Positions 1 to 18,214 of a DNA stretch of 40,320 bases are shown one piece after another. A program made the position numbers and the translations under genes. The stretch lies in the UHGV virus genome UHGV-1432856; one strand, 5' to 3'. Source of the stretch: a virus. Each line of letters opens with the position of its first letter. Within the stretch, counting starts at the first letter, position 1. The notes beneath the pieces were generated by a model, which saw only the letters and a program-made list of their open reading frames with translations, had not been told where the DNA came from and made no database searches.

Positions 1-1477
1 CACCGGTGCTGATACCGGCATAGTCATCATCGCAGATTTCAATAACATCGCCCGGTACATGGCGAAGCCCTTCTGCGCCGACGCTGAAATCCACGGTCTG
101 CGTCTCCAGCAGCTCCGTTTTAATCAGCCACAGCCCGGCGCGGTGTGCCTGCCCCCGGCTGGTACAGCCAAAGGCATCCATCTTCGTGACATTACGACCG
201 TAACGGGCAATGGCCTGCGTATCTTCAACAAGCTCTGTCGCCGTCTCCCAGCCGTTATCCGGGTCAATCCAGTTCACCTCAACGGCATTATGGCGGTCCT
301 TCAGGGCGCTGAAACTGTAGCGGAACGGCGCGCCATCATCCGGCATCACCACATTACTGCGGTTATAGGTCCATACCTTATCCGATGGCCGGTCCTGCAC
401 GAACGTCAGCGTCTGCCCGTTCCATACCGGCATACAGCGCATCGCCGAGCAGAAATCACTGAGCACATCCCACGCCTTGCGCTGTGTGGTCAGGTAAGCG
501 TTACAGGTGATGCGCGGCTCCGTGCCGCCAAAGCCGTCCGGCACCGACTGGTCGCAATTCTGGCCGATGACATACAGCGCCCATTTATCCACATCCGCCG
601 CACCAAGACGTTTCCCCATGCCGTAGCGCGGATGGGTCAGCATATCCCACAGACACCAGGCCATGTTGTTGCTGTATGCCGGTTTTAACGTTCCGTCCCA
701 GATACCGCTGTATTGCCGCGTCTGCGGGTTATAGTTCGACGGCACCTGCAGAATGCGCCCGCGAAGATGATAATTACGGCTCACCTGCTGGCTGCCGAAC
801 TGCTCCGAGTCCACCTGCACGCCAACCAGTGCCGTGTTCGGGTAGCACTGTTTCACATCGATGATCTCGGTGTATGACGACCAGAGCGTTTTGTTCTGCA
901 GCTGGTCTGTGGTGCTGTCCGGCGTCATCCTGCGCATCCGGATATTGAACGGGCGCGGCGGCAGGTTATCCACCACCACCGAGGCCAGATACTGCGAGGT
1001 GGTTTTGCCCTTAATGGTGATGTCTTTTTCCGTCACCCAGCCACCGTTACGCTGTATCTGAACCAGCAGGCGAACTTCCGACGGATTCCTGTCACCCTTT
1101 GAGGTGGTTTCCACCAGTGCCTGCACACCGAAGGTAAAGCGCAGACGGTCGATGTTTGCAGACGTGATGGTCCGGGTGATCGGCGTGTCGTATTTCACTT
1201 CCGTACCCAGCACCGTCTCGGAGCCGGAGGATTCAAACCCCTCCGGCGGTGTCTGCTCCTGTTCACCTGCCCGGAACACCACCGTGACACCGGCGATGTT
1301 GGTATTCCCCTCACTGTCCAGCACCGGTGTACTGTTCAGCAGCACGCTTTTTAATCCATCCACCGGACCTTCAATCGGCCCTTCACTGATGGCGTCTATC
1401 ACGCTCAGCATCTGCGTGGACTTCAGGTTGTCCTTCGCTTCGCGCGGGGTATGCCCCTTACTGCTGCCTTTACCCAT
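1..1477 (-). CDS. J: lambda-type tail tip / host specificity protein J, N-terminal part only (3' end lies beyond window start)
   Basis: Reverse complement upstream of 1477 translates to MGKGSSKGHTPREAKDNLKSTQMLSVIDAISEGPIEGPVDGLK..., the lambda J N-terminus as recalled; start codon at 1475-1477; the plus-strand ORFs at 59-1511 are its antisense shadow. Confidence 0.9.
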   Translation of the reverse strand, partial: MGKGSSKGHTPREAKDNLKSTQMLSVIDAISEGPIEGPVDGLKSVLLNSTPVLDSEGNTNIAGVTVVFRAGEQEQTPPEGFESSGSETVLGTEVKYDTPITRTITSANIDRLRFTFGVQALVETTSKGDRNPSEVRLLVQIQRNGGWVTEKDITIKGKTTSQYLASVVVDNLPPRPFNIRMRRMTPDSTTDQLQNKTLWSSYTEIIDVKQCYPNTALVGVQVDSEQFGSQQVSRNYHLRGRILQVPSNYNPQTRQYSGIWDGTLKPAYSNNMAWCLWDMLTHPRYGMGKRLGAADVDKWALYVIGQNCDQSVPDGFGGTEPRITCNAYLTTQRKAWDVLSDFCSAMRCMPVWNGQTLTFVQDRPSDKVWTYNRSNVVMPDDGAPFRYSFSALKDRHNAVEVNWIDPDNGWETATELVEDTQAIARYGRNVTKMDAFGCTSRGQAHRAGLWLIKTELLETQTVDFSVGAEGLRHVPGDVIEICDDDYAGISTG

Positions 1478-1537
1478 TCCTCACGCTCCAGAAACGACAA
1501 AACCGCCCTGAGGCGGTTTCACACAAAACATTCTGCA

Positions 1538-2209
1538 TCAACGACCAATCACCACAACCTGACCACCATCTCCTTCATCTGCCGTGCTGATCTCCTGCGA
1601 AATCACCCGTGACCCCACGCGCATTTCACCGTACAGAACCGGCAGAACATTGCCCTGGGCAACCATGTTATCCAGTGAGGAGAAATAGGTGTTCTGCTTA
1701 CCGTTATCCGTTGTCTGTGTGCGGGGAGTTCTGGCTTTCGGTGCCAGCATCTGAGCCACACCGCCGAGCACCATACTGGCACCGAGAGAAAACAGAATGC
1801 CGGTCATACCACCGGCCCCAATGGCTGTCCCCCATGCTGCAAGGGTGGCTCCGGCGGTAAAGAATGATCCGGCAATGGCGGCTGCCCCCAGGACAATCTG
1901 GAATACGCCACCTGACTTGGCCCCGGCGACTCTGGGAACGATATGAATCACAGCGCCGTCAGGCAGATCCTCATGTAACTGCGCCGTTAATCCGGACGTG
2001 CTGACATCCTGCCCGGCAATACGTACCTGATACCAGCCGTCGCTCAGTTTCTGACGAAACGCAGGGAGCTGTGTGGCCAGCGCCCGGATGGCTTCGGCCC
2101 CCGTTTTCACACGAAGGTCGATGCGGCGGCCAAATCGTTGTAAATCCCCGTAAAGGCAGATGCGCGCCATGCCCGGTGACGCCAGAGGGAGTGTGTGCGT
2201 CGCTGCCAT
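1538..2209 (-). CDS. I: tail assembly protein I
   Basis: 223 aa, MAATHTLPLASPGMARICLYGDLQRFGRR... matches lambda gpI; glycine-rich hydrophobic C-terminal half; about 60 nt gap to J as in lambda. Confidence 0.9.
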   Translation of the reverse strand: MAATHTLPLASPGMARICLYGDLQRFGRRIDLRVKTGAEAIRALATQLPAFRQKLSDGWYQVRIAGQDVSTSGLTAQLHEDLPDGAVIHIVPRVAGAKSGGVFQIVLGAAAIAGSFFTAGATLAAWGTAIGAGGMTGILFSLGASMVLGGVAQMLAPKARTPRTQTTDNGKQNTYFSSLDNMVAQGNVLPVLYGEMRVGSRVISQEISTADEGDGGQVVVIGR

Positions 2210-2850
2210 TTGTCGGTGTACCTCTCTCGTTTGCTCAGTTGTTCAGGAATATGGTGCAGCAGCTCGCCGTCGCCGCAGTAAATTGCGGCGTGATTCGGCA
2301 CCGATGAACCAAAACAGCACAGCAGCACATCGCCCGGCTGTGCCGCTGACAACGGCACCTGATACAGCCCCGTCGCCTCCAGATTATCCAGATAGAGATT
2401 CTGGCCGTTACGCCACCAGTCATCCTCACGATGAAAGTCCGGCATCCCAATCCCCGCCAGATGATAAGCATCCCGGAACAGTGTGTAACAGTCCGTCACA
2501 CCGTGCCCAAAGCGCCGCCCGGTGAGATGCGGCACACAGCGGAACTTATGAATCGTCCCCCGGCAGACCAGCCACCACGGCAAATCACTCTGCACCTGCA
2601 GCCGCCGGTCGGCCTCACTCAGCCAGGGCAGACCACCGGGGTGGCTGTGGACCAGCGCCACAATCTCACCCTGCATCTCTGCCCGCAGCCAGTCCTCCGG
2701 CGACATCCGGAAATACGCCTCCGGCTCACCGGAGATATTCACGCAGGGAAAATATCTTTCCCCTTCCGGCGTTCTCACCACGAAGCCGCACGACTCCGCT
2801 GGCGCACATCGCCGGGCGTGCGCCAGAATCGCTGATTCTGTCTCTGTCAT
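2107..2850 (-). CDS. K: tail assembly protein K (MPN/JAB plus NlpC/P60 peptidase-like)
   Basis: HSHPGG (JAB-like) and DCYTLF (NlpC/P60 Cys) motifs; 103-nt overlap with I as in lambda. Canonical lambda annotation starts at the internal Met (about 2706, 199 aa); the longer ORF from 2850 is reported here. Confidence 0.8.
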   Translation of the reverse strand: MTETESAILAHARRCAPAESCGFVVRTPEGERYFPCVNISGEPEAYFRMSPEDWLRAEMQGEIVALVHSHPGGLPWLSEADRRLQVQSDLPWWLVCRGTIHKFRCVPHLTGRRFGHGVTDCYTLFRDAYHLAGIGMPDFHREDDWWRNGQNLYLDNLEATGLYQVPLSAAQPGDVLLCCFGSSVPNHAAIYCGDGELLHHIPEQLSKRERYTDKWQRRTHSLWRHRAWRASAFTGIYNDLAAASTFV

Positions 2851-2855
2851 GGGAT

Positions 2856-3554
2856 TTACTGCGAAAGTTTGTTAATGGAAAGGAAGCCGCCAAAGTTGCC
2901 GACGTTATTGCGAAACTTACAGCCACTCAGGCATTTGCTGCATTTATCCTTCGTGATATCGGACGTCGGCTGGTCATATTCATCCGCGACAGCCGGACCA
3001 TGATAACCGCACTCATCACCGCGATAGGTCCAGGTGCAGGTGTTGGCCAGCATGATGCGCCCCGGAAAAACAGCACCATCCGTTTCCGTCGGTGTGGAGA
3101 GCACAAAGGAGGCACTGACCGCACTCAGTTCGCTGCACTGCTCGATGCGCCAGCGGCTGATCACCTCCTGCTCCGGATCGGCGTCGCTGTTTCCGTTGAC
3201 GAAGTTCACCGCATCCAGAAAACGGGCGTAAACCTTACGCCTGACCACCGTTCCGCCGACCAGACTCTGCAGGTCTTCCGCCATCCCGGTGACCATGCCG
3301 TGCAGGTTAGAGACCGTCAGTGTCGGACGGGCAGCACTGCCCTTACCGTTCAGTTCAAATCCCGTCCCCTGAATGGGGTATGCCTGATACTGCCGCCCCT
3401 GCCAGGTGACCGGCTCACCTTTTTCGTTCTGCTCATTACAGAAAAAATAACGTTCTCCACCAACCTCTGTCAGATCGATTTCCCAGAGCACCACGCAGGC
3501 AGACTGCTCCGCACGGGTGCATTCATTCAGTGTTTCCTGCCGGATATCCTGCAT
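2856..3554 (-). CDS. L: minor tail protein L
   Basis: 232 aa, MQDIRQETLNECTRAEQSA...KCSKCLSGCKFRNNVGNFGGFLSINKLSQ matches lambda gpL as recalled, including the C-terminal Cys cluster. Confidence 0.9.
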   Translation of the reverse strand: MQDIRQETLNECTRAEQSACVVLWEIDLTEVGGERYFFCNEQNEKGEPVTWQGRQYQAYPIQGTGFELNGKGSAARPTLTVSNLHGMVTGMAEDLQSLVGGTVVRRKVYARFLDAVNFVNGNSDADPEQEVISRWRIEQCSELSAVSASFVLSTPTETDGAVFPGRIMLANTCTWTYRGDECGYHGPAVADEYDQPTSDITKDKCSKCLSGCKFRNNVGNFGGFLSINKLSQ

Positions 3555-3883
3555 CAGTTCACCACCTGTTCAAACTCTGCGCTGAACTCAACACGTAACA
3601 TACTGACCCGCGACGACCATTTTGCGCAGGTCACCTTTATCTGCCTGTAACCATAAGGCGGCGTCCACAGAAAGCCCTTCCAGCCCCCGTGCTCAGCCAG
3701 AAACGACTCCAGCGCTGTTGCCTCCTCGCGGGAGACAGAAAGCGTCACGCTGTACGTTTTCAGGTTGGCATTCAGCCCGGCAGGCGCTCGCTGGGAATAG
3801 CCATCACCAAAGCGCACCTTTCTTACAGAAGGGGCCGAAGCCACATCCATACCGGGTTTCACTTTCCAGCGGAAGGTTTTCAT
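3554..3883 (-). CDS. M: minor tail protein M
   Basis: 109 aa, MKTFRWKVKPGMDVASAPSVRKVRFGDGYSQRAPAGLNANLKTYSVTLS... matches lambda gpM; start overlaps H stop. Confidence 0.9.
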   Translation of the reverse strand: MKTFRWKVKPGMDVASAPSVRKVRFGDGYSQRAPAGLNANLKTYSVTLSVSREEATALESFLAEHGGWKGFLWTPPYGYRQIKVTCAKWSSRVSMLRVEFSAEFEQVVN

Positions 3884-6441
3884 CGTCCACCTCCGGAGAA
3901 CAGGCCACCATCACGCATCTGTGTCTGAATTTCATCACGGGCACCCTTGCGGGCCATGTCATACACCGCCTTCAGAGCAGCCGGACCTATCTGCCCGTTC
4001 GTGCCGTCGTTGTTAATCACCACATGGTTATTCTGCTCAAACGTCCCGGACGCCTGCGACCGGCTGTCAGCCAGACTGCCCGGTGTACCGACATAACCAC
4101 CGGTGGCATAGCCGCGCATCAGCCGGTAGAGATTCCCCACGCCAATCCGGCTGGTTGCCTCCTTCGTGAAGACAAATTCACCACGGTGAACAATCCCCGC
4201 TGGCTCATATTTGCCGCCGGTTCCTGTGAATCCTCCGGTTGCAAAATGGAATTTCGCCGCAGCGGCCTGAATGGCTGTACCGCCTGACGCGGATGCGCCG
4301 CCACCAACAGCCCCGCCAATGGCGCTGCCGATACTCCCGACAATCCCCACCATTGCCTGCTTAAGCAGAATTTCTGTCATCATGGACAGCACGGAACGGG
4401 TGAAGCTGCGCCAGTTCTGCTCACTGCCGGTCAGCATCGCTGCCATATTCTGTGCAATACCATCAAAGGTCTGCGTGGCTGCACTTTTTACCTGCGACAT
4501 ACTGTCCGTGGCGCTCTCTTCCCACTCACTCCAGCCGGACTTCAGGCCTGCCATCCAGCTCCCGCGAAGCTGGTCTTCAGCCGCCCAAGTCTTTTTCTGC
4601 TCTGACATGACGTTATTCAGCGCCAGCGGATTATCGCCATACTGTTCCTTCAGGCGCTGTTCCGTGGCTTCCCGTTCTGCCTGCCGGTCAGTCAGCCCCC
4701 GGCTTTTCGCATCAATGGCGGCCCGTTTTGCCCGTTGCTGCTGTGCGAATTTATCCGCCTGCTGCGCCAGCGCGTTCAGGCGCTCCTGATACGTAACCTT
4801 GTCGCCAAGTGCAGCCAGCTGGCGTTTGTACTCCAGCGTCTCATCTTTATGCGCCAGCAGGGATTTCTCCTGTGCAGACAGCTGGCGACGTTGCGCCGCC
4901 TCCTCCAGTACCGCGAACTGACTCTCCGCCTTCCACAAATCCCGGCGCTGCTGGCTGATTTTCTCATTTGCTCCGGCATGCTTCTCCAGCGTCCGGAGTT
5001 CTGCCTGAAGCGTCAGCAGGGCAGCATGAGCACTGTCTTCCTGACGATCGCCCGCAGACACCTTCACGCCGGACTGTTTCGGCTTTTTCAGCGTCGCTTC
5101 ATAATCCTTTTTCGCCGCCGCCATCAGCGTGTTGTAATCCGCCTGCAGGATTTTCCCGTCTTTCAGTGCCTTGTTCAGTTCTTCCTGACGGGCGGTATAT
5201 TTCTCCAGCGGCGTCTGCAGCCGTTCGTAAGCCTTCTGCGCCTCTTCGGTATATTTCAGCCGTGACGCTTCGGTATCGCTCTGCTGCTGCGCATTTTTGT
5301 CCTGTTGAGTCTGCTGCTCAGCCTTCTTTCGGGCGGCTTCAAGCGCAAGACGGGCCTTTTCACGATCATCCCAGTAACGCGCCCGCGCTTCATCGTTAAC
5401 AAAATAATCATCCTTGCGCAGATTCCAGATGTCGTCTGCTTTCTTAAACGCAGCCTCTGCCTTAATCAGCATCTCCTGCGCGGTATCAGGACGACCAATA
5501 TCCAGCACCGCATCCCACATGGATTTGAAGGCCCGCGCTGTCCTGTCTGCCCAGGTCTCCAGCGTGCCCATGTTCTCTTTCAGGCGGCGGGTCTGGTCAT
5601 CAAACCCTTTCGTTGCGGCCTCGTTCGCCGCCTGCAATGCCCCGGCTTCATCGCCGGAACGCTGCAACTGAGCAACATACGCAATCTGCTCCGCCGTCAC
5701 GTTATGGAACTGGCGTGCCATCGCTGTCAGCCCTGACGTCGGGTCTGTGGTCAGCTTCCCGAAGGCTTCAGCGACCTTGTCCACCTCCACGCCGGATGCA
5801 GAAGAGAAACGCGCCACACTCTGGCTGATGGACGCAATCTGAGCCTCACCGCTTACCCCCGCCTTAACCAGTGCACTGAGTGACTCGCTGGTCTGGTTAA
5901 ACGTCAGCCCTGCCGCCTGCCCGGCTCTGGACAGGACCAGCATACGATCTGCCGTCAGACCCGACTGATTACCGGAAAGGACCAGCGTTTTGTTGAAATC
6001 GGACAGGGTTGAGTCACCCTGATACCAGGCATACGCCAGCGCACCGGTCGCCACCGCCAGCGAGGTGGCCCCGACCATCGGCAGGGTGATCGCACCGGCA
6101 AGCCCCCGGAACATGGGGATCATCCCGCCGAAGGAGTCCTTAACCTGACCACCCTGTTGCAGCAGGATCAGCCACGGGCTTTGCCCGCCTGCAAGCTGCG
6201 TGGCCACGTCGGTGAACTGTGCAGGCAGCATACGCATGGCGGCTTTATACTGCCCGACGGAAATCCCCGCTTTCTGTGCAGCCAGCGCCTGTCGGCTCAG
6301 CGACTTTTCAACGACTGCCGCTGTTTTTTTCGCATCAGTTTCCGTGCCGGAAAAATGACGCCTGACTCTGGCCATCTGCTCGTCAAATCTGGCCGCATCC
6401 AGACTTAAATCAACGACCAGATCGCCTACCGGTTCAGCCAT
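3880..6441 (-). CDS. H: tail tape measure protein H
   Basis: 853 aa, the same length as lambda gpH; coiled-coil-rich centre and glycine-rich hydrophobic C-terminal segment; 8-nt overlap with the upstream T frame as in lambda. Confidence 0.95.
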   Translation of the reverse strand: MAEPVGDLVVDLSLDAARFDEQMARVRRHFSGTETDAKKTAAVVEKSLSRQALAAQKAGISVGQYKAAMRMLPAQFTDVATQLAGGQSPWLILLQQGGQVKDSFGGMIPMFRGLAGAITLPMVGATSLAVATGALAYAWYQGDSTLSDFNKTLVLSGNQSGLTADRMLVLSRAGQAAGLTFNQTSESLSALVKAGVSGEAQIASISQSVARFSSASGVEVDKVAEAFGKLTTDPTSGLTAMARQFHNVTAEQIAYVAQLQRSGDEAGALQAANEAATKGFDDQTRRLKENMGTLETWADRTARAFKSMWDAVLDIGRPDTAQEMLIKAEAAFKKADDIWNLRKDDYFVNDEARARYWDDREKARLALEAARKKAEQQTQQDKNAQQQSDTEASRLKYTEEAQKAYERLQTPLEKYTARQEELNKALKDGKILQADYNTLMAAAKKDYEATLKKPKQSGVKVSAGDRQEDSAHAALLTLQAELRTLEKHAGANEKISQQRRDLWKAESQFAVLEEAAQRRQLSAQEKSLLAHKDETLEYKRQLAALGDKVTYQERLNALAQQADKFAQQQRAKRAAIDAKSRGLTDRQAEREATEQRLKEQYGDNPLALNNVMSEQKKTWAAEDQLRGSWMAGLKSGWSEWEESATDSMSQVKSAATQTFDGIAQNMAAMLTGSEQNWRSFTRSVLSMMTEILLKQAMVGIVGSIGSAIGGAVGGGASASGGTAIQAAAAKFHFATGGFTGTGGKYEPAGIVHRGEFVFTKEATSRIGVGNLYRLMRGYATGGYVGTPGSLADSRSQASGTFEQNNHVVINNDGTNGQIGPAALKAVYDMARKGARDEIQTQMRDGGLFSGGGR

Positions 6442-6670
6442 ACCGGACTCCTCCTGCGATCCCTTCTGATACTGTCATCAGCATTACGTCATCCTCCGTC
6501 ATGTCCGCCACATCCGGGGAAGCGGGGATAACTTCTTTCCCATCCGGGCCAAAACGAACGCCTCCGGCAAGCCCTGCTGCTTTCTGCATCAGCACATCAT
6601 CTTCAGGCTCTTCGTCAGCCTCGCGCCGGTTCAGCAGACTGAAATCCAGCGGATGCATATCCGGATCGCT
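6434..6670 (-). pseudogene. T: 3' fragment of the T segment of the G-T tail assembly chaperone; 5' part and gene G missing
   Basis: Frame ends exactly 8 nt inside the H start, as lambda T does; the frame stays open only to 6721, and composition turns AT-rich above about 6670; where G, V and U should follow there are Mu-like genes instead. Confidence 0.55.
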
Positions 6671-6680
6671 GAAAAACAGG

Positions 6681-6814
<134 letters not shown>

Positions 6815-6842: not shown

Positions 6843-7232
6843 TTACTCTTTTTTCTCCGTATCTGCATCGGGTTCATCAGCAAATAGCTTGCCCTGCATC
6901 CGATCCAGTTCTTCTTTTCTTACCCGCTTAACCACGCTGTAGACCCACTGAAGCGAAACACCAAATTTGCGGGCCAGTTCGTGGTGGTTGCGTCCGTTAA
7001 ACTCCCTGAAGATTTCCCGGTCGCGCTGACTGACCTTCCATACCATGCCCATCGGGAAATAAACGTTTTGCCCGCCCCAGACCTGCATCATTCGGTTCGC
7101 GACGGCCTGACCAATCTGGTCGGCAACTTCGGGCTCAATATCAATAATCTCGCGAACGGTCTCAGAGGTATGCTGTGCCAGTTCCACCAGGAGTTCCGGC
7201 CCCTTACTTCGAAACTGATTCAGGTCGCTCAT
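6843..7232 (-). CDS. mor: Mor/C-family late transcription activator
   Basis: 129 aa (same length as Mu Mor); C-terminal HTH region FNGRNHHELARKFGVSLQWVYSVVKR resembles the Mor/C family; follows GemA as in Mu. Confidence 0.75.
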   Translation of the reverse strand: MSDLNQFRSKGPELLVELAQHTSETVREIIDIEPEVADQIGQAVANRMMQVWGGQNVYFPMGMVWKVSQRDREIFREFNGRNHHELARKFGVSLQWVYSVVKRVRKEELDRMQGKLFADEPDADTEKKE

Positions 7233-15159: not shown

Positions 15160-15179
15160 ATGAGAACTATTGTTCTCAT
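15160..15179. promoter_or_regulatory. putative operator: inverted repeat ATGAGAAC-TATT-GTTCTCAT
   Basis: Perfect 8-bp arms with 4-bp spacer, inside the 86-bp divergent region between the Cro/Ner-like and repressor genes. Confidence 0.45.
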
Positions 15180-15195
15180 TGTCAATGAGGTTTAT

Positions 15196-15621
15196 GTGAA
15201 TTTTGATTCTCTTTGCGCGTCGCGGTTCAAAGCTGAGCGTTCGCGGTTATCACTCAAGCAGGCTGAAGTAGCAGCCCTTTGTGGCGTTTCAAGAGAAATG
15301 TGGGGGAAATATGAACGAGGGGTTGCTGTTCCCGGAGGTGAGTTACTTGCAGCCTTTGCAAGAATTGGGGCCAATGTACAGTTCATTCTTACCGGGGAGT
15401 CATCAGGTATAACTTTATCACGTGATGAAATGGAGTTACTGCAGCACTACCGGCAGGCACCATTACAGGTCAAAGGTTCAGTTTTGTCGGCCTTGACTAC
15501 TGGCTCCTCCAGAGAACGGGCGGAACAGGTTATTCATGGAGATGTTCTGGGGAATGTTATCAAAGGTAACGTAACCATAGGAACAGGTGGAATAATGAAC
15601 AAAAATACCAAGAGAAGATGA
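15196..15621 (+). CDS. XRE-family HTH transcriptional regulator, probable prophage repressor
   Basis: HTH LSLKQAEVAALCGVSREMWGKYERG; start placed at GTG 15196 (GAGG at 5 nt spacing); the track ORF starts at ATG 15160 inside the palindrome; divergent from the early operon. Confidence 0.65.
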   Translation: MNFDSLCASRFKAERSRLSLKQAEVAALCGVSREMWGKYERGVAVPGGELLAAFARIGANVQFILTGESSGITLSRDEMELLQHYRQAPLQVKGSVLSALTTGSSRERAEQVIHGDVLGNVIKGNVTIGTGGIMNKNTKRR

Positions 15622-16604
15622 GTAAAGAGAAGCAAACAGTTAACGGGGATGTGGGTAACGTTGTCAGCGGTGATGTTACCATTCATAACTATTCTGCTGA
15701 CATACTTCCTTCGGCCCAGCAACCAATTTCGTTGCTGCAAAAACGCGATTTACACAGATTGATGGATGAATTGGTTGATCTGGGGGAAAGTAAGCGCGAG
15801 CTATGGATGACGATCCACACGAAACTTAATACCAAAACAGTTAATGAAATGACTGCGGCTGATTATCATGGTGCGGTTGAGATCCTTCAGAGATATGCAC
15901 AACAGATCCAGAATATGAAGGACTGTAATCTTCTGGTCAGCAAAATAATGGCGCTTACTGACCCTGGGTATCGTCTTGACCGTGACAGATACTGTCTGAA
16001 GCATTTCGGTACAACCCATCTTAAAGGCCTAGACAAAGAGCAGTTGCAGGCTGTGTTTGGTTATTTTGATGATCTGCTGAATATTCGTGATGAGAGTAAA
16101 ACTCTATCACCTCCATCGGAAAGCGGTGCAAAATCAGTCGCAACTGTACCAACCAGAAGCCGGAAGCCTCATGTAGTAGTGTTGGGGGGAGTGTTAGTTC
16201 TTGTAGCAATATTTTTCGTGGGAATGATTGTGTTCGCTGGTAAATGGGGAAATGCCAAAGCAGTAGCTTCTACTGAAACCAGCGTTTTTAACATTAAAAC
16301 CAACGATAAAATAATAGAAGATTCCATCCCCGCACTGCGCAGCATGTTTCCAGGGTTAAATAAGTACTCAGATGATTTCCATTCGGTTTCAAGCTACAAG
16401 CAAAAAACGGGCTGGCATACCCTTAAATTTACTGTATCAGCAAAGGCATCCGTCCCCGAAAATTATAGTGTTAAGGGCAAGGTTTGTTACATTAACATAA
16501 GCCCTGATGGTAGTTATGCTCGGGTTTTGACTGCTCCATGTCGTTCACTGCTACTTGATCAGCAAAGCACTCCTGACAGTAAATACCGTTTTATTCTTAA
16601 ATAG
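15618..16604 (+). CDS. single-pass membrane protein of unknown function, translationally coupled to the repressor
   Basis: 328 aa; ATGA overlap with the repressor stop; one TM helix (VVVLGGVLVLVAIFFVGMIVFA) between a roughly 185-aa N-terminal and 120-aa C-terminal domain; N-terminal GDV/GNV repeat; AT-rich. Confidence 0.6.
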   Translation: MSKEKQTVNGDVGNVVSGDVTIHNYSADILPSAQQPISLLQKRDLHRLMDELVDLGESKRELWMTIHTKLNTKTVNEMTAADYHGAVEILQRYAQQIQNMKDCNLLVSKIMALTDPGYRLDRDRYCLKHFGTTHLKGLDKEQLQAVFGYFDDLLNIRDESKTLSPPSESGAKSVATVPTRSRKPHVVVLGGVLVLVAIFFVGMIVFAGKWGNAKAVASTETSVFNIKTNDKIIEDSIPALRSMFPGLNKYSDDFHSVSSYKQKTGWHTLKFTVSAKASVPENYSVKGKVCYINISPDGSYARVLTAPCRSLLLDQQSTPDSKYRFILK

Positions 16605-16694
16605 AAAATAACAGCTGAATTACCATGGGATCAGAAAAAAGACAAAGGCGGCATCATGCTGCGTTCTGAAATTTTAATGTAAAAGGTGATGAAC

Positions 16695-17276
16695 ATGGCA
16701 GGGATTCAGGTTATCGCAGGAAGTTTTCCTAAAGGGTGGGCAAGCATGGGGTTCGGTACCATCGTGTTTGCCAAAAAACCAAAACAAGGCTTTCCTGAAA
16801 ATATTGTATTAAATCTGAAAGAAGAGCTTTTATCGATTGAACTTGCGGATAGTGAAGAGGAAAGCCGTATAGGTAAGGCGGCAGGCGCAGGTTTGCTTGG
16901 TGGATTAATCTTTGGTGGTGCAGGGTTGGTCATTGGAGGTTTGCTTGGTGCGGCGGACAAGACGAAAAAAACTATCACTTTTAAGGCAATGTTTACGGGA
17001 AATAGGTTACTTCTGGCTAAAACAGATTCAAAAACTTTTGTAAAACTTCAGTCAATTGCTGCTGATAATGCCCATAACGCATCTGTAATCAACATGAAGC
17101 AAACTAACAGGGGCGATGTTTCTTCTCGTAAACAACTAACAGAAAATCCACAGCAGCAAGACTTACCTGCGCCCGCTACAACAGTAAAAATGACTGCCAA
17201 AGATAAGTTAGAATCGGCTCTTGGGCTGGGAATCATCGTTATAGCTGTTTGGGCAATAATACACTTCTTTTTTTAG
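16695..17276 (+). CDS. glycine-zipper membrane protein of unknown function
   Basis: GKAAGAGLLGGLIFGGAGLVIGGLLGAA glycine zipper plus C-terminal hydrophobic helix LGLGIIVIAVWAIIHFFF; start chosen at ATG 16695 (AGGTG upstream); AT-rich. Confidence 0.55.
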   Translation: MAGIQVIAGSFPKGWASMGFGTIVFAKKPKQGFPENIVLNLKEELLSIELADSEEESRIGKAAGAGLLGGLIFGGAGLVIGGLLGAADKTKKTITFKAMFTGNRLLLAKTDSKTFVKLQSIAADNAHNASVINMKQTNRGDVSSRKQLTENPQQQDLPAPATTVKMTAKDKLESALGLGIIVIAVWAIIHFFF

Positions 17277-17278
17277 TG

Positions 17279-17302
17279 CAGCCCTTCAGGGCTGTTTCTG
17301 TT
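17279..17302 (+). terminator. Rho-independent terminator ending the repressor-linked cassette
   Basis: CAGCCC-TTCA-GGGCTG hairpin followed by TTTCTGTT, 3 nt after the stop at 17276. Confidence 0.5.
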
Positions 17303-17313
17303 CAGGAGGTATC

Positions 17314-17790
17314 TTAAGGATTATCCGGGGCGTTTTCCTGTTTGCCGTACTTCGGAGACGAACAACATTCTGTTGGCTGACCGGTGAGTTTACGTAACTC
17401 CTTCATGAGCAGCTCCTGATCGTAAACTGTCATCAGTGCCGCAATGGTGGCATGCAGTGCATCGGGCAGTATCCAGGGTTGCCGGCCCGTGGGGCATATA
17501 ACATCCAGCAGCTCATTCGTCCGACAGATACGCTCCTCGCCGTATGACAACAGGCCCTGTCCCGTGTATTCCTCCAGCCTGATCACTGTGCCACCCCGTG
17601 GCTTCTGCCAGGTCGTCAGATCTTCGCCATTCATACGGCGCTCATTCTCCACGTCAGCAGCATCGACAATGACGCTGTTTCCGAGTTCCTGTTTCACCAT
17701 CTCTTCTATCCGCGCCAGTACGTAACTTTTACCGCTGCCCACAGGACCGGACACAGTGACAGTGATGACCGGATTCAGTGTGTGCGTCAT
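17314..17790 (-). CDS. small P-loop protein, NMP/shikimate-kinase-like
   Basis: 158 aa; Walker A GPVGSGKS at residues 15-22 followed closely by VIVDAADVE, resembling small P-loop kinases; strong GAGGAG RBS; convergent with the cassette. Confidence 0.55.
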   Translation of the reverse strand: MTHTLNPVITVTVSGPVGSGKSYVLARIEEMVKQELGNSVIVDAADVENERRMNGEDLTTWQKPRGGTVIRLEEYTGQGLLSYGEERICRTNELLDVICPTGRQPWILPDALHATIAALMTVYDQELLMKELRKLTGQPTECCSSPKYGKQENAPDNP

Positions 17791-17849
17791 ATCGTATTCT
17801 CCTCTGTGAATAATTCATCGTTTATCCTGCACATCCCGTATCCCCGGCT

Positions 17850-17870
17850 CTCTTAACGCGCTTTAAAATC
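17850..17870 (+). promoter_or_regulatory. degenerate copy of the late-region motif, upstream of the lysis genes
   Basis: CTCTTAA-CGCG-CTTTAAAATC, about 50 nt upstream of the ATG at 17921; compare 31232-31253 and 37583-37604. Confidence 0.3.
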
Positions 17871-17920
17871 CTTCGCGCCCTGTATTTGTGATGCTGTCTC
17901 CACCAGATAAGGAGACACAC

Positions 17921-18214
17921 ATGAAAAACCTGAAAAAATTCATTCCCCCTGTTAAAAAACCTCGCCTCAGCGGCTGGCTGCTGACCTCAGTGCTGTTGCT
18001 GGGCACCATCGCTCTGGTCTCACCACAGCAGCTGCCTGTTGTGATCTACAAGCTGGCACTCATCACGCTGGCAGCAGTGCTGGGTTACTGGCTTGACCGT
18101 TCGCTCTTCCCCAAAGCCCGTCCCGGTCAGTACCTGAAACATGACGACAGGCTGATGGCTGAAGGGCGTTTCCCGGTACAGACCGGCCTTCACCTGGTGT
18201 TTTCTGCTGCGTAA
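17921..18214 (+). CDS. small two-TM membrane protein, putative holin
   Basis: Start MKNLKKF with AAGGAG RBS; two hydrophobic helices; directly upstream of the endolysin; the track ORF starts at 17888. Confidence 0.45.
   Translation: MKNLKKFIPPVKKPRLSGWLLTSVLLLGTIALVSPQQLPVVIYKLALITLAAVLGYWLDRSLFPKARPGQYLKHDDRLMAEGRFPVQTGLHLVFSAA

What the first reader, a model, noticed from the sequence alone, without database searches (positions are those of the whole stretch)
17314..17790. Stand-alone miniature P-loop kinase-like gene convergent with the cassette
A 158-aa protein has the Walker A GPVGSGKS at residues 15-22 and an acidic VIVDAADVE segment about 20 residues later, the arrangement of small NMP/shikimate-type kinases rather than AAA+ or RecA ATPases. 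It is transcribed opposite to all neighbours from the region it shares with the lysis genes. Small phosphotransferases in accessory prophage loci are often toxins or effectors, so it may be the effector of the adjacent cassette or an independent addition.
Basis: partly seen in the sequence, partly recalled or inferred. Interest (0 to 1): 0.5.

Follow-up and report, generated by a model that had tools for sequence, protein, structure and literature searches.

The report
Shortened phage mini P-loop accessory gene
The gene is real and has a genuine nucleotide-binding (Walker A) motif, but it is not a recognisable kinase or the effector of its neighbours: it is a deletion-shortened copy of an uncharacterised accessory gene carried by BcepMu-like transposable prophages in about 10% of E. 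coli genomes.

Summary

The conserved unit is a ~75-residue N-terminal module: strand, Walker A, helix, strand, E50, W61, P64, then a 'hhhhE' strand. The module also exists alone as 73-90-aa phage proteins and is fused to mosaic C-termini elsewhere.

The 158-aa allele is a deletion derivative of the 242/247-aa form. An ~870-bp deletion fused codon ~154 to the last codons of a downstream 71-aa gene. It keeps both conserved modules.

The gene occurs in 570 of 5426 complete E. coli genomes and the neighbouring cassette in 127. Each occurs without the other. The cassette starts with the prophage repressor (BcepMu gp17 homologue).

Most likely it is a small nucleotide-binding accessory protein of unknown target. 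In relatives it is the first gene of a P-loop/Dam methylase unit. Function is unproven.

The parts
17314..17790 (-). CDS, 158 aa, 17.5 kDa, pI 5.0, soluble. Identical to WP_000149906.1, which PGAP names 'ABC transporter ATPase'. Member of PHROG 3787.
17563..17790 (-). N-terminal conserved module, residues 1-76: strand 8-14, Walker A, helix 21-36, strand 40-46, E50, W61, P64, strand 69-73 'VIRLE'. This is the only part conserved across the whole family, and it exists as stand-alone 73-90-aa proteins elsewhere.
17725..17748 (-). Walker A, GPVGSGKS, residues 15-22.
17572..17586 (-). Residues 69-73, VIRLE: four hydrophobic or aliphatic residues then an acidic one. E73 is kept in at least 70% of family members. 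Candidate Walker B-like strand (inferred).
17641..17643 (-). Codon of E50, nearly invariant in the family.
17383..17481 (-). Second conserved module, residues ~104-136 (PWILPDALHATIAALMTVYDQELLMKELRKL), predicted helical. It forms the extreme C-terminus of distant relatives.
17325..17340 (-). Deletion junction. Both homology blocks to the 247-type locus overlap here (short imperfect repeat CAC(A)CCCGG...). Upstream codons come from the 247-type gene.
17295..17324 (-). 3' end taken from the end of the 71-aa downstream gene of 247-type prophages: the last codons 'DNP', the stop at 17314-17316, and about 19 nt of its 3' flank. Shared with a divergent 158-aa allele in another context (L034).
17278..17295 (+). 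G+C-rich hairpin followed by a T-rich tail. It is the terminator-like end of the + strand repressor cassette and marks the right border of the exchanged cassette.
17799..17803 (-). Ribosome-binding site AGGAG, 8 nt before the ATG.
   Evidence: read directly
17791..17920 (.). Divergent intergenic region shared with the holin gene. No sigma-70-like promoter on either strand. Two motifs are conserved in relatives with only 47-57% protein identity: ATCCTGC (17824-17830) and TTAACGCGCTTTAAAAT (17853-17869). Probably an activator-dependent late promoter (inferred).
15160..17276 (+). Neighbouring cassette, not part of the gene's unit. It holds an HTH repressor (15160-15621; 39% identical to BcepMu gp17), a 328-aa membrane-anchored protein (15618-16604) and a 196-aa membrane protein (16686-17276).

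Best explanation
The gene is an accessory, moron-type gene of enterobacterial BcepMu-like transposable prophages. It belongs to an uncharacterised phage protein family, PHROG 3787.

Shown:
- The family has a constant ~75-residue N-terminal module: strand, Walker A (GxxGxGKS), helix, strand, E50, W61, P64, then a 'hhhhE' strand. This module also occurs on its own as 73-90-aa phage proteins.
- Elsewhere the module is fused to mosaic, mostly helical C-terminal modules.
- In most E. coli relatives the gene is 242-247 aa. It is the first gene of a leftward set, P-loop gene, 71-aa gene, Dam methylase, that starts back to back with the lysis genes.
- The 158-aa allele arose by an ~870-bp deletion between short repeats. 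The deletion fused codon ~154 to the last codons of the 71-aa gene.
- Everything beyond 17295 was then exchanged for a BcepMu gp17-type repressor cassette. The gene is now orphaned and convergent with that cassette.
- The short protein keeps both family-wide conserved modules and loses only the third, optional one.

Inferred:
- The protein binds a nucleoside triphosphate, or at least a phosphate group, through K21/S22, with E50 and/or E73 as the acidic partner.
- It probably works as a homo-oligomer, because the module is too small to form a complete P-loop sheet alone.
- It uses the C-terminal helices to contact a partner.
- It serves a dispensable phage-host conflict or DNA-modification function.
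- It is not a metabolic kinase or a toxin of the cassette.
For: Identity and family:
- PHROG 3787 at E 2e-107, covering profile positions 1-157 of 242.
- 100% identical to many E. coli chromosomes.
- The closest phage is the Bcepmuvirus PhiKM, which has a 242-aa homologue.

Module structure:
- 55 representatives match at E <= 1e-3, 29 of them at E <= 1e-10. Most align only over residues 1-76 and range from 73 to 364 aa.
- Conserved positions are listed.
- Stand-alone genes are seen in L026 and L036, and an 82-aa viral model is the best BFVD match.

Synteny:
- The gene lies divergent from the holin in all enteric BcepMu-like loci examined. A Dam methylase, in most loci preceded by the 71-aa gene, usually lies downstream.

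Deletion and exchange junctions.

Independence from the cassette:
- Gene in 570 genomes, cassette in 127.
- The cassette's first two genes occur without the gene.
- The HTH protein is a gp17 repressor homologue.

Coding and selection:
- dN/dS about 0.27.
- 569 of 570 genome copies cover at least 80% of the gene.

P-loop character:
- Sub-threshold hits to many P-loop families, all confined to residues ~4-60.
- PDB profile hits to ABC nucleotide-binding domains and to designed minimal P-loop proteins.
Against: - No biochemical or genetic data exist for any member. The literature searches found nothing.
- The structure models are weak. The shallow alignment gave pLDDT 47. The deeper one gave 65, with about 80 over residues 11-70, but DSSP found no strands. 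Neither the P-loop fold nor oligomerisation is shown.
- Three representatives have GAESSGKN, GAEDAGKN or GAENAGKN, so the Mg-binding Ser/Thr is lost in part of the family.
- 182-aa variants lack residues 51-86 and 96-124. This questions whether strand 3 is needed.
- The Dam linkage is mostly shared ancestry within one prophage lineage. Distant relatives L026, L036 and L040 show no adjacent methylase.
- This allele is a deletion product in a prophage that also carries a nonsense mutation in its holin. It may no longer matter to the phage.
Confidence: 0.5

Rival explanations
1. One reading: a miniature NMP/shikimate-type phosphotransferase that acts as the toxin or effector of the adjacent two-membrane-protein cassette.
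For: - Walker A near the N-terminus, followed about 18 residues later by VIVDAADVE, which recalls the shikimate-kinase DxD segment.
- Weak hits to guanylate, uridine and cytidylate kinase and to Zeta toxin, covering the P-loop only.
Against: - All kinase hits are far below threshold and cover only residues ~4-58 (residues 4-30 in the PDB cytidylate kinase hit).
- D43 is not conserved.
- There is no LID or substrate domain. The conserved unit is about 75 aa.
- Gene and cassette are distributed independently.
- The cassette is the repressor operon.
- No PADLOC hit.
Confidence: 0.05
2. Functionless remnant: the 158-aa ORF is what a deletion and a cassette exchange left behind. It persists only through linkage to the conserved lysis and late-promoter region.
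For: - It is a deletion derivative.
- Many frameshifted or truncated variants exist in databases, such as P0020-P0029 and P0037.
- 182-aa forms with internal deletions exist.
- The holin of this prophage has a premature stop.
- No sigma-70 promoter was found.
Against: - dN/dS is about 0.27 over both halves.
- The intact 158-aa form is abundant: one cluster has 369 members, and about 134 of 570 complete-genome hits are at least 95% identical to it.
- It occurs as divergent alleles (83-87% identity) in at least two contexts.
- It retains both modules that are conserved across the family.
- It has a good ribosome-binding site.
Confidence: 0.15
3. Accessory or regulatory subunit of the phage DNA-modification unit. 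The protein works with the co-oriented Dam methylase, much as com works with mom in phage Mu. In this window it is orphaned because the methylase was lost.
For: - In most E. coli relatives the P-loop gene and a Dam methylase lie on one strand, in most loci with a 71-aa gene between them.
- In L025 the Dam gene follows directly.
- In the distant locus L028 a DNA methylase ends about 60 nt before the P-loop ORF.
- The position, back to back with an apparently activator-dependent late promoter, resembles a late modification operon (the Mu analogy is from general knowledge).
Against: - L026, L036 and L040 have no adjacent methylase.
- The gene persists without Dam here.
- No sequence or structural link to a methylase cofactor or regulator was found.
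- com is a zinc-finger translational activator, unrelated in sequence.
Confidence: 0.2

Closest known systems
PHROG 3787 / RefSeq WP_000149906.1 (PGAP name 'ABC transporter ATPase'; fragments are named 'KAP family NTPase')
   Same: It is this family: E 2e-107 to the PHROG and 100% identity to the RefSeq protein. It has the same position next to the holin in BcepMu-like prophages.
   Different: The PHROG profile is 242 long, and this allele stops at profile position 157 because of a deletion. The database names are motif-level guesses, and the family has no known function.
ABC-type ATPase nucleotide-binding domains (Pfam ABC_tran, ASCE class)
   Same: Walker A, a helix, then a strand resembling 'G.V.IDG.D(I/L)': GPVGSGKSYVLARIEEMVKQELGNSVIVDAADV. 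These are the best PDB profile hits (whole-sequence E 2e-5). 15 of 24 N-modules give weak ABC_tran hits.
   Different: There is no Q-loop, no LSGGQ signature, no H-loop and no helical subdomain. The score is 13.6 bits against a 25-bit cut-off. The whole conserved unit is about 75 aa, against about 200 for an ABC domain.
NMP kinases and shikimate kinase (P-loop kinases)
   Same: An N-terminal Walker A, small size, and in this subfamily an acidic segment about 18 residues after the P-loop.
   Different: The acidic D43 is not conserved. There is no GGG motif, LID or substrate lobe, no family threshold is reached, and there is no fold match.
Designed minimal P-loop proteins (PDB 6c2u 'phosphate-loop protein'; 9jix 'De Novo Designed ATPase PL2x4_2')
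   Same: A short strand, P-loop and helix unit of comparable size. Profile hits at E 1e-4 to 3e-4, which for 9jix run over module residues 7-58.
   Different: Those are engineered consensus sequences, so similarity is expected for any P-loop. Nothing shows that the natural module folds or binds nucleotide in the same way.
Phage Mu com-mom late DNA-modification operon (general knowledge)
   Same: A small first gene followed by a DNA-modifying enzyme, in a transposable phage, with no sigma-70-type promoter.
   Different: There is no sequence relationship. The methylase is absent from this window, and the timing and regulation here are not known.

Membership tests
P-loop NTPase superfamily (generic) | Walker A GxxxxGK[ST], preceded by a hydrophobic strand and followed by a helix | tested here: met
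   GPVGSGKS at residues 15-22 follows VITVTVS. A helix at 21-36 appears in both models. The motif is nearly invariant in the family.
P-loop NTPase superfamily (generic) | Walker B (hhhhD/E) on a strand next to, or one strand away from, the P-loop strand, within a parallel sheet of five or more strands | tested here: inconclusive
   Candidate VIRLE (69-73), with E73 kept in at least 70% of members. Only 3-4 strands are predicted, in a low-confidence model. The better model shows no sheet, and no fold match was found.
NMP / shikimate kinase | Passes a curated family model (Pfam or NCBIfam cut-off) | tested here: not met
   Guanylate kinase scores 12.9 bits against 263 and uridine kinase 12.5 against 180. 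Cytidylate_kin matches only 4 of 24 N-modules, with best E 1e-3.
NMP / shikimate kinase | Conserved substrate-binding residues and lobes (shikimate kinase DxD and GGG, LID arginines, NMP-binding domain) | tested here: not met
   D43 varies to E, V, T, G, L or K across the family. 'RGGT' is 'RSGT' or 'RAGT' in relatives. The region after residue 76 is mosaic.
NMP / shikimate kinase | Kinase fold | tested here: inconclusive
ABC transporter ATPase (the PGAP name) | Pfam ABC_tran gathering score; Q-loop, LSGGQ signature, Walker B-DE, H-loop | tested here: not met
   13.6 bits against 25. No signature motif is visible when the sequence is read. 'LSYGE' (80-84) lies after the candidate Walker B and is not conserved.
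KAP family NTPase / Zeta toxin / BREX BrxC-D / Septu PtuA (defence-related P-loops) | Family model threshold | tested here: not met
   KAP scores 14.6 against 20, Zeta 12.6 against 22.3 and BrxC_BrxD 12.6 against 22.2. PADLOC best E is 0.007, over the P-loop only.
PHROG 3787 | Significant full-length match to the family profile | tested here: met
   E 2.1e-107, 359 bits, residues 1-157 on profile positions 1-157 of 242.
Effector of the adjacent cassette (operon or system membership) | Co-occurrence and conserved linkage with the cassette genes | tested here: not met
   Gene in 570 genomes, cassette in 127, of which 97 are complete. The HTH and 328-aa genes occur without the P-loop gene in L037. 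The gene occurs with Dam instead of the cassette in L008-L021, L034 and L038.

The most novel reading that the evidence does not exclude
The ~75-residue N-terminal unit could be an autonomous, naturally occurring minimal P-loop domain, with Walker A and an acidic strand and nothing else. It would assemble into oligomers to bind nucleotide. That would make it the smallest natural relative of the P-loop NTPases, close in size to laboratory 'ancestral' P-loop prototypes. Temperate phages would use it alone or fused to exchangeable C-terminal modules, for example as a nucleotide sponge or as a decoy for ABC/SMC-type defence ATPases.
Probability: 0.15. Interest if true: 0.7.

Novelty: new variant of a known kind. 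Interest (0 to 1): 0.33.

Why it matters
The gene is a separate, uncharacterised phage family present in about one in ten E. coli genomes.

For phage biology, the locus shows step by step how the variable region between the repressor and the lysis genes of a transposable prophage is remodelled. A microhomology deletion came first, then a cassette exchange at a terminator hairpin.

For protein evolution, stand-alone 73-90-aa versions of a Walker A module would be of real interest if they fold and bind nucleotide. That is not shown here.

Tried and rejected
- Pfam, NCBIfam and PADLOC scans of the protein and its neighbours gave only sub-threshold P-loop hits. No defence system was called.
- Pfam on ten longer relatives gave no domain for any C-terminal module.
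- AlphaFold2 with 16 close sequences gave pLDDT 47. With 47 diverse sequences it gave pLDDT 65, but DSSP found no strands.
- PDB sequence-profile searches hit only the Walker A region of ABC transporters, designed P-loop proteins and cytidylate kinase.
The genome-contig scan returned only five loci.
- The Rfam scan of the whole window found nothing.
- The promoter scan found no sigma-70-like site for the gene.
- Literature searches for the accession, for Bcepmuvirus in Escherichia and for minimal P-loop phage proteins found nothing on this gene.
- I first thought that insertion of this particular cassette had truncated the gene. I dropped this because the same 'PDNP-stop' end occurs in a divergent allele with Dam downstream.
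- I considered 'LMTVYDQE' (119-126) as a Walker B. I rejected it because the segment is predicted helical and D becomes H in P0058 and P0061.

Full report
**Observation**

The ORF 17314-17790 on the minus strand is present as described. It codes for 158 aa and starts at an ATG. An AGGAG ribosome-binding site lies 8 nt upstream. GPVGSGKS occupies residues 15-22 and VIVDAADVE residues 40-48.

The two immediate neighbours are on the + strand: the 196-aa membrane protein ending at 17276 and the holin starting at 17921. A strict Walker A (GxxGxGK[ST]) occurs only twice in the six-frame translation of the window, here and in the ExeA/MuB-like ATPase, against 0.17 expected in shuffles. The protein is acidic (pI 5.0) and soluble. 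Among E. coli alleles dN/dS is about 0.27 over both halves. It is a real gene under purifying selection.

**Where it sits**

The window from about 6678 onwards is a BcepMu-like transposable prophage of E. coli. It is 99.6% identical to a prophage of strain AR_0015, and the nearest deposited phage is the Bcepmuvirus PhiKM.

The layout is as follows. Mor, Gam, the ExeA-like ATPase, the transposase and a Ner-like gene run leftwards. An HTH protein at 15160-15621 points rightwards; it is 39% identical (E 5e-20) to the BcepMu gp17 cI/Cro-type repressor. Two membrane proteins follow it. Then comes the P-loop gene on the minus strand, then holin, SLT endolysin, spanin-like genes, terminase and the structural genes. 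So the 'cassette' of the finding is the repressor operon with two cargo genes, as in BcepMu gp17-gp18. BcepMu itself has no P-loop gene.

**What family it is**

The protein matches PHROG 3787 (unknown function) at E 2e-107, but only over profile positions 1-157 of 242. Pfam, NCBIfam and PADLOC give only sub-threshold hits confined to residues ~4-63. These spread over many P-loop families: AAA_30, AAA_22, KAP, cobW, T2SSE, BrxC/D, Zeta, ABC_tran, and guanylate and uridine kinase. PGAP calls it 'ABC transporter ATPase'.

An exhaustive phmmer search of 1.8 billion representatives found 55 proteins at E <= 1e-3. Nearly all align only over residues 1-76, and their lengths run from 73 to 364 aa. Their C-terminal parts are mosaic: blocks are shared between some members and absent from others. 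None of ten tested relatives has a Pfam domain there.

Several members are the module alone: P0064, P0069, P0073, P0079, P0085 and P0086. Two were checked in their contigs and are complete genes (L026 5989-6240; L036 845-1090). The best BFVD structural match of the model is an unnamed 82-aa viral protein (probability 1.0, TM 0.65 on the target).

**The conserved module**

Across 24 diverse N-modules the nearly invariant positions are G15, G18, G20, K21, S22, I28 and E50. W61, P64 and E73 are also well kept. E73 ends a 'VIRLE'/'IFKLE' stretch and is a candidate Walker B-like strand. This is an inference.

Elsewhere it is E, V, T, G, L or K. Three representatives have GAESSGKN, GAEDAGKN or GAENAGKN and so lack the Ser/Thr.

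PDB profile searches hit the Walker A, helix and 'IDGxDI' strand region of ABC transporter domains (whole-sequence E 2e-5, per-domain E about 1). They also hit two designed minimal P-loop proteins (6c2u, 9jix) and cytidylate kinase, the last over residues 4-30 only. When the 24 modules are scanned one by one, ABC_tran, AAA_16 and AAA_22 are each hit by 15 and Cytidylate_kin by 4, all below threshold.

**Structure**

**History of this allele**

Homology with PhiKM and the other 242/247-aa alleles ends at window 17326, four codons before the stop. A divergent 158-aa allele, P0008 (83% identical), lies in a different context, with Dam and another repressor downstream (L034). It shares the same 'PDNP-stop' end and about 19 nt beyond it, and its homology with the window ends at 17295.

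Comparing L034 with a 247-type locus (L010) shows two collinear blocks. L010 5800-6466 aligns with L034 4800-5466, and L010 7319-8928 aligns with L034 5451-7060. The blocks overlap by 16 nt. So an ~870-bp deletion between short imperfect repeats fused codon ~154 of the P-loop gene, in frame, to the last codons of the 71-aa gene. It removed the last ~90 codons, an antisense 134-aa ORF and most of the 71-aa gene.

In the window, everything left of 17295 was then replaced by the repressor cassette. Position 17295 is the right end of the cassette's terminator-like hairpin at 17278-17295.

The deleted part is the third, optional module. The segment PWILPDALHATIAALMTVYDQELLMKELRKL (residues ~104-136) is kept. 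This same segment is the extreme C-terminus of distant relatives P0033, P0036, P0013 and P0071. The 158-aa protein thus has the family's minimal architecture.

**Relation to neighbours**

In complete E. coli genomes the gene is found in 570 of 5426, and 569 of those copies cover at least 80% of it. About 134 are at least 95% identical to the short allele; that these are the 158-aa type is my inference from the identity bands and the listed rows. The rest are 90-95% identical and annotated as a longer hypothetical protein. The cassette is in 127 genomes, complete in 97.

The HTH and 328-aa genes occur in a prophage that has no P-loop gene (L037). In all enteric BcepMu-like loci fetched, the gene is divergent from the holin. 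It is usually followed on the same strand by a Dam methylase, in most loci with a 71-aa gene between them, and then by a convergent repressor. The gene is therefore not the effector of the cassette. The cassette is the exchangeable part, and the P-loop gene is the more constant one.

A methylase also lies directly next to the gene in L025 and in the distant locus L028. It does not in L026, L036 or L040. In a Pseudomonas entomophila prophage the homologue sits between spanin-like genes and HNH/TerS/TerL, again a moron-type position beside the lysis genes.

**Expression**

No sigma-70-like promoter is found on either strand of the 130-bp divergent intergenic region. Two motifs there, ATCCTGC and TTAACGCGCTTTAAAAT, are conserved in loci whose proteins are only 47-57% identical. 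I read this as an activator-dependent (Mor/C-type) late promoter for the lysis operon. Whether it also drives the P-loop gene is unknown.

**Conclusion**

The most likely account is that this is a small nucleotide-binding accessory protein of a phage-specific family. It works through a minimal Walker A module, probably as an oligomer, and a helical partner-binding part. It belongs to a dispensable host-interaction or DNA-modification unit, and here it is present as a deletion-shortened, orphaned allele.

The anatomy and history are shown. Nucleotide binding, oligomerisation and the biological role are inferred.

Rivals:
- A functionless remnant: possible but disfavoured by selection and abundance.
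- A Dam accessory factor: plausible within this lineage only.
- A kinase toxin of the cassette: not supported.

No literature on the gene was found.

Noticed in passing
window 18212-18214 (holin gene 17921-18214): The holin carries a premature stop. TTA (Leu98) in related prophages L002 and L003 is TAA here (T->A at 18213). This removes the last 19 residues (LIRRALIVAAVCLAVAMGL, a hydrophobic segment) of the 116-aa holin. This prophage copy may be lysis-defective (the Pfam match stops at profile position 87 of 106).
   Followed up: partly
window 1-6683 versus 6678 onwards: The first 6.7 kb is the tail region of a lambdoid prophage (tape measure, gpL, C40 peptidase, tail assembly, gpJ-type annotations in matching genomes). 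The BcepMu-like prophage starts at about 6678, just before its Mor gene (6843-7232, minus strand). So the transposable prophage appears to have inserted into another prophage's tail gene cluster.
   Followed up: partly
window 17895-17917 (+): The hairpin GTCTCC-N9-GGAGAC covers the holin ribosome-binding site. The stems are kept in loci with only ~60% holin identity, while the loop varies. The predicted RNA fold is -14.2 kcal/mol with z -2.0. It may control holin translation.
   Followed up: partly
window 17824-17830 and 17853-17869: ATCCTGC and the near-palindromic TTAACGCGCTTTAAAAT are conserved in the divergent intergenic region of distant BcepMu-like prophages. No -35 element is present. 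This is likely a Mor/C-type activator-dependent late promoter.
   Followed up: partly
window 15618-16604 and 16686-17276 (+): Two membrane proteins lie immediately downstream of, and on the same strand as, the prophage repressor (PHROGs 10002 and 12025, unknown function). The 328-aa protein has a weak Flk-like N-terminal match (E 3e-12, far below cut-off). The position is that of lambda rexAB-type lysogen-expressed exclusion genes. In L037 the 328-aa gene is followed by different cargo, including a DUF2441 protein.
   Followed up: partly
L010 6720-7124 (247-type relatives; absent from the window): A 134-aa ORF lies antisense between the 3' end of the 247-aa P-loop gene and the 71-aa gene, overlapping the former by about 25 nt. 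RefSeq annotates it in L038. It is removed by the deletion that made the 158-aa allele.
   Followed up: no
proteins P0028, P0030 (182 aa): In-frame internal-deletion variants of the family keep only strand 1, Walker A, the helix and strand 2 (residues 1-50) joined to the C-terminal modules. One cluster has 58 members. Either strand 3 is dispensable or these are decaying copies.
   Followed up: no
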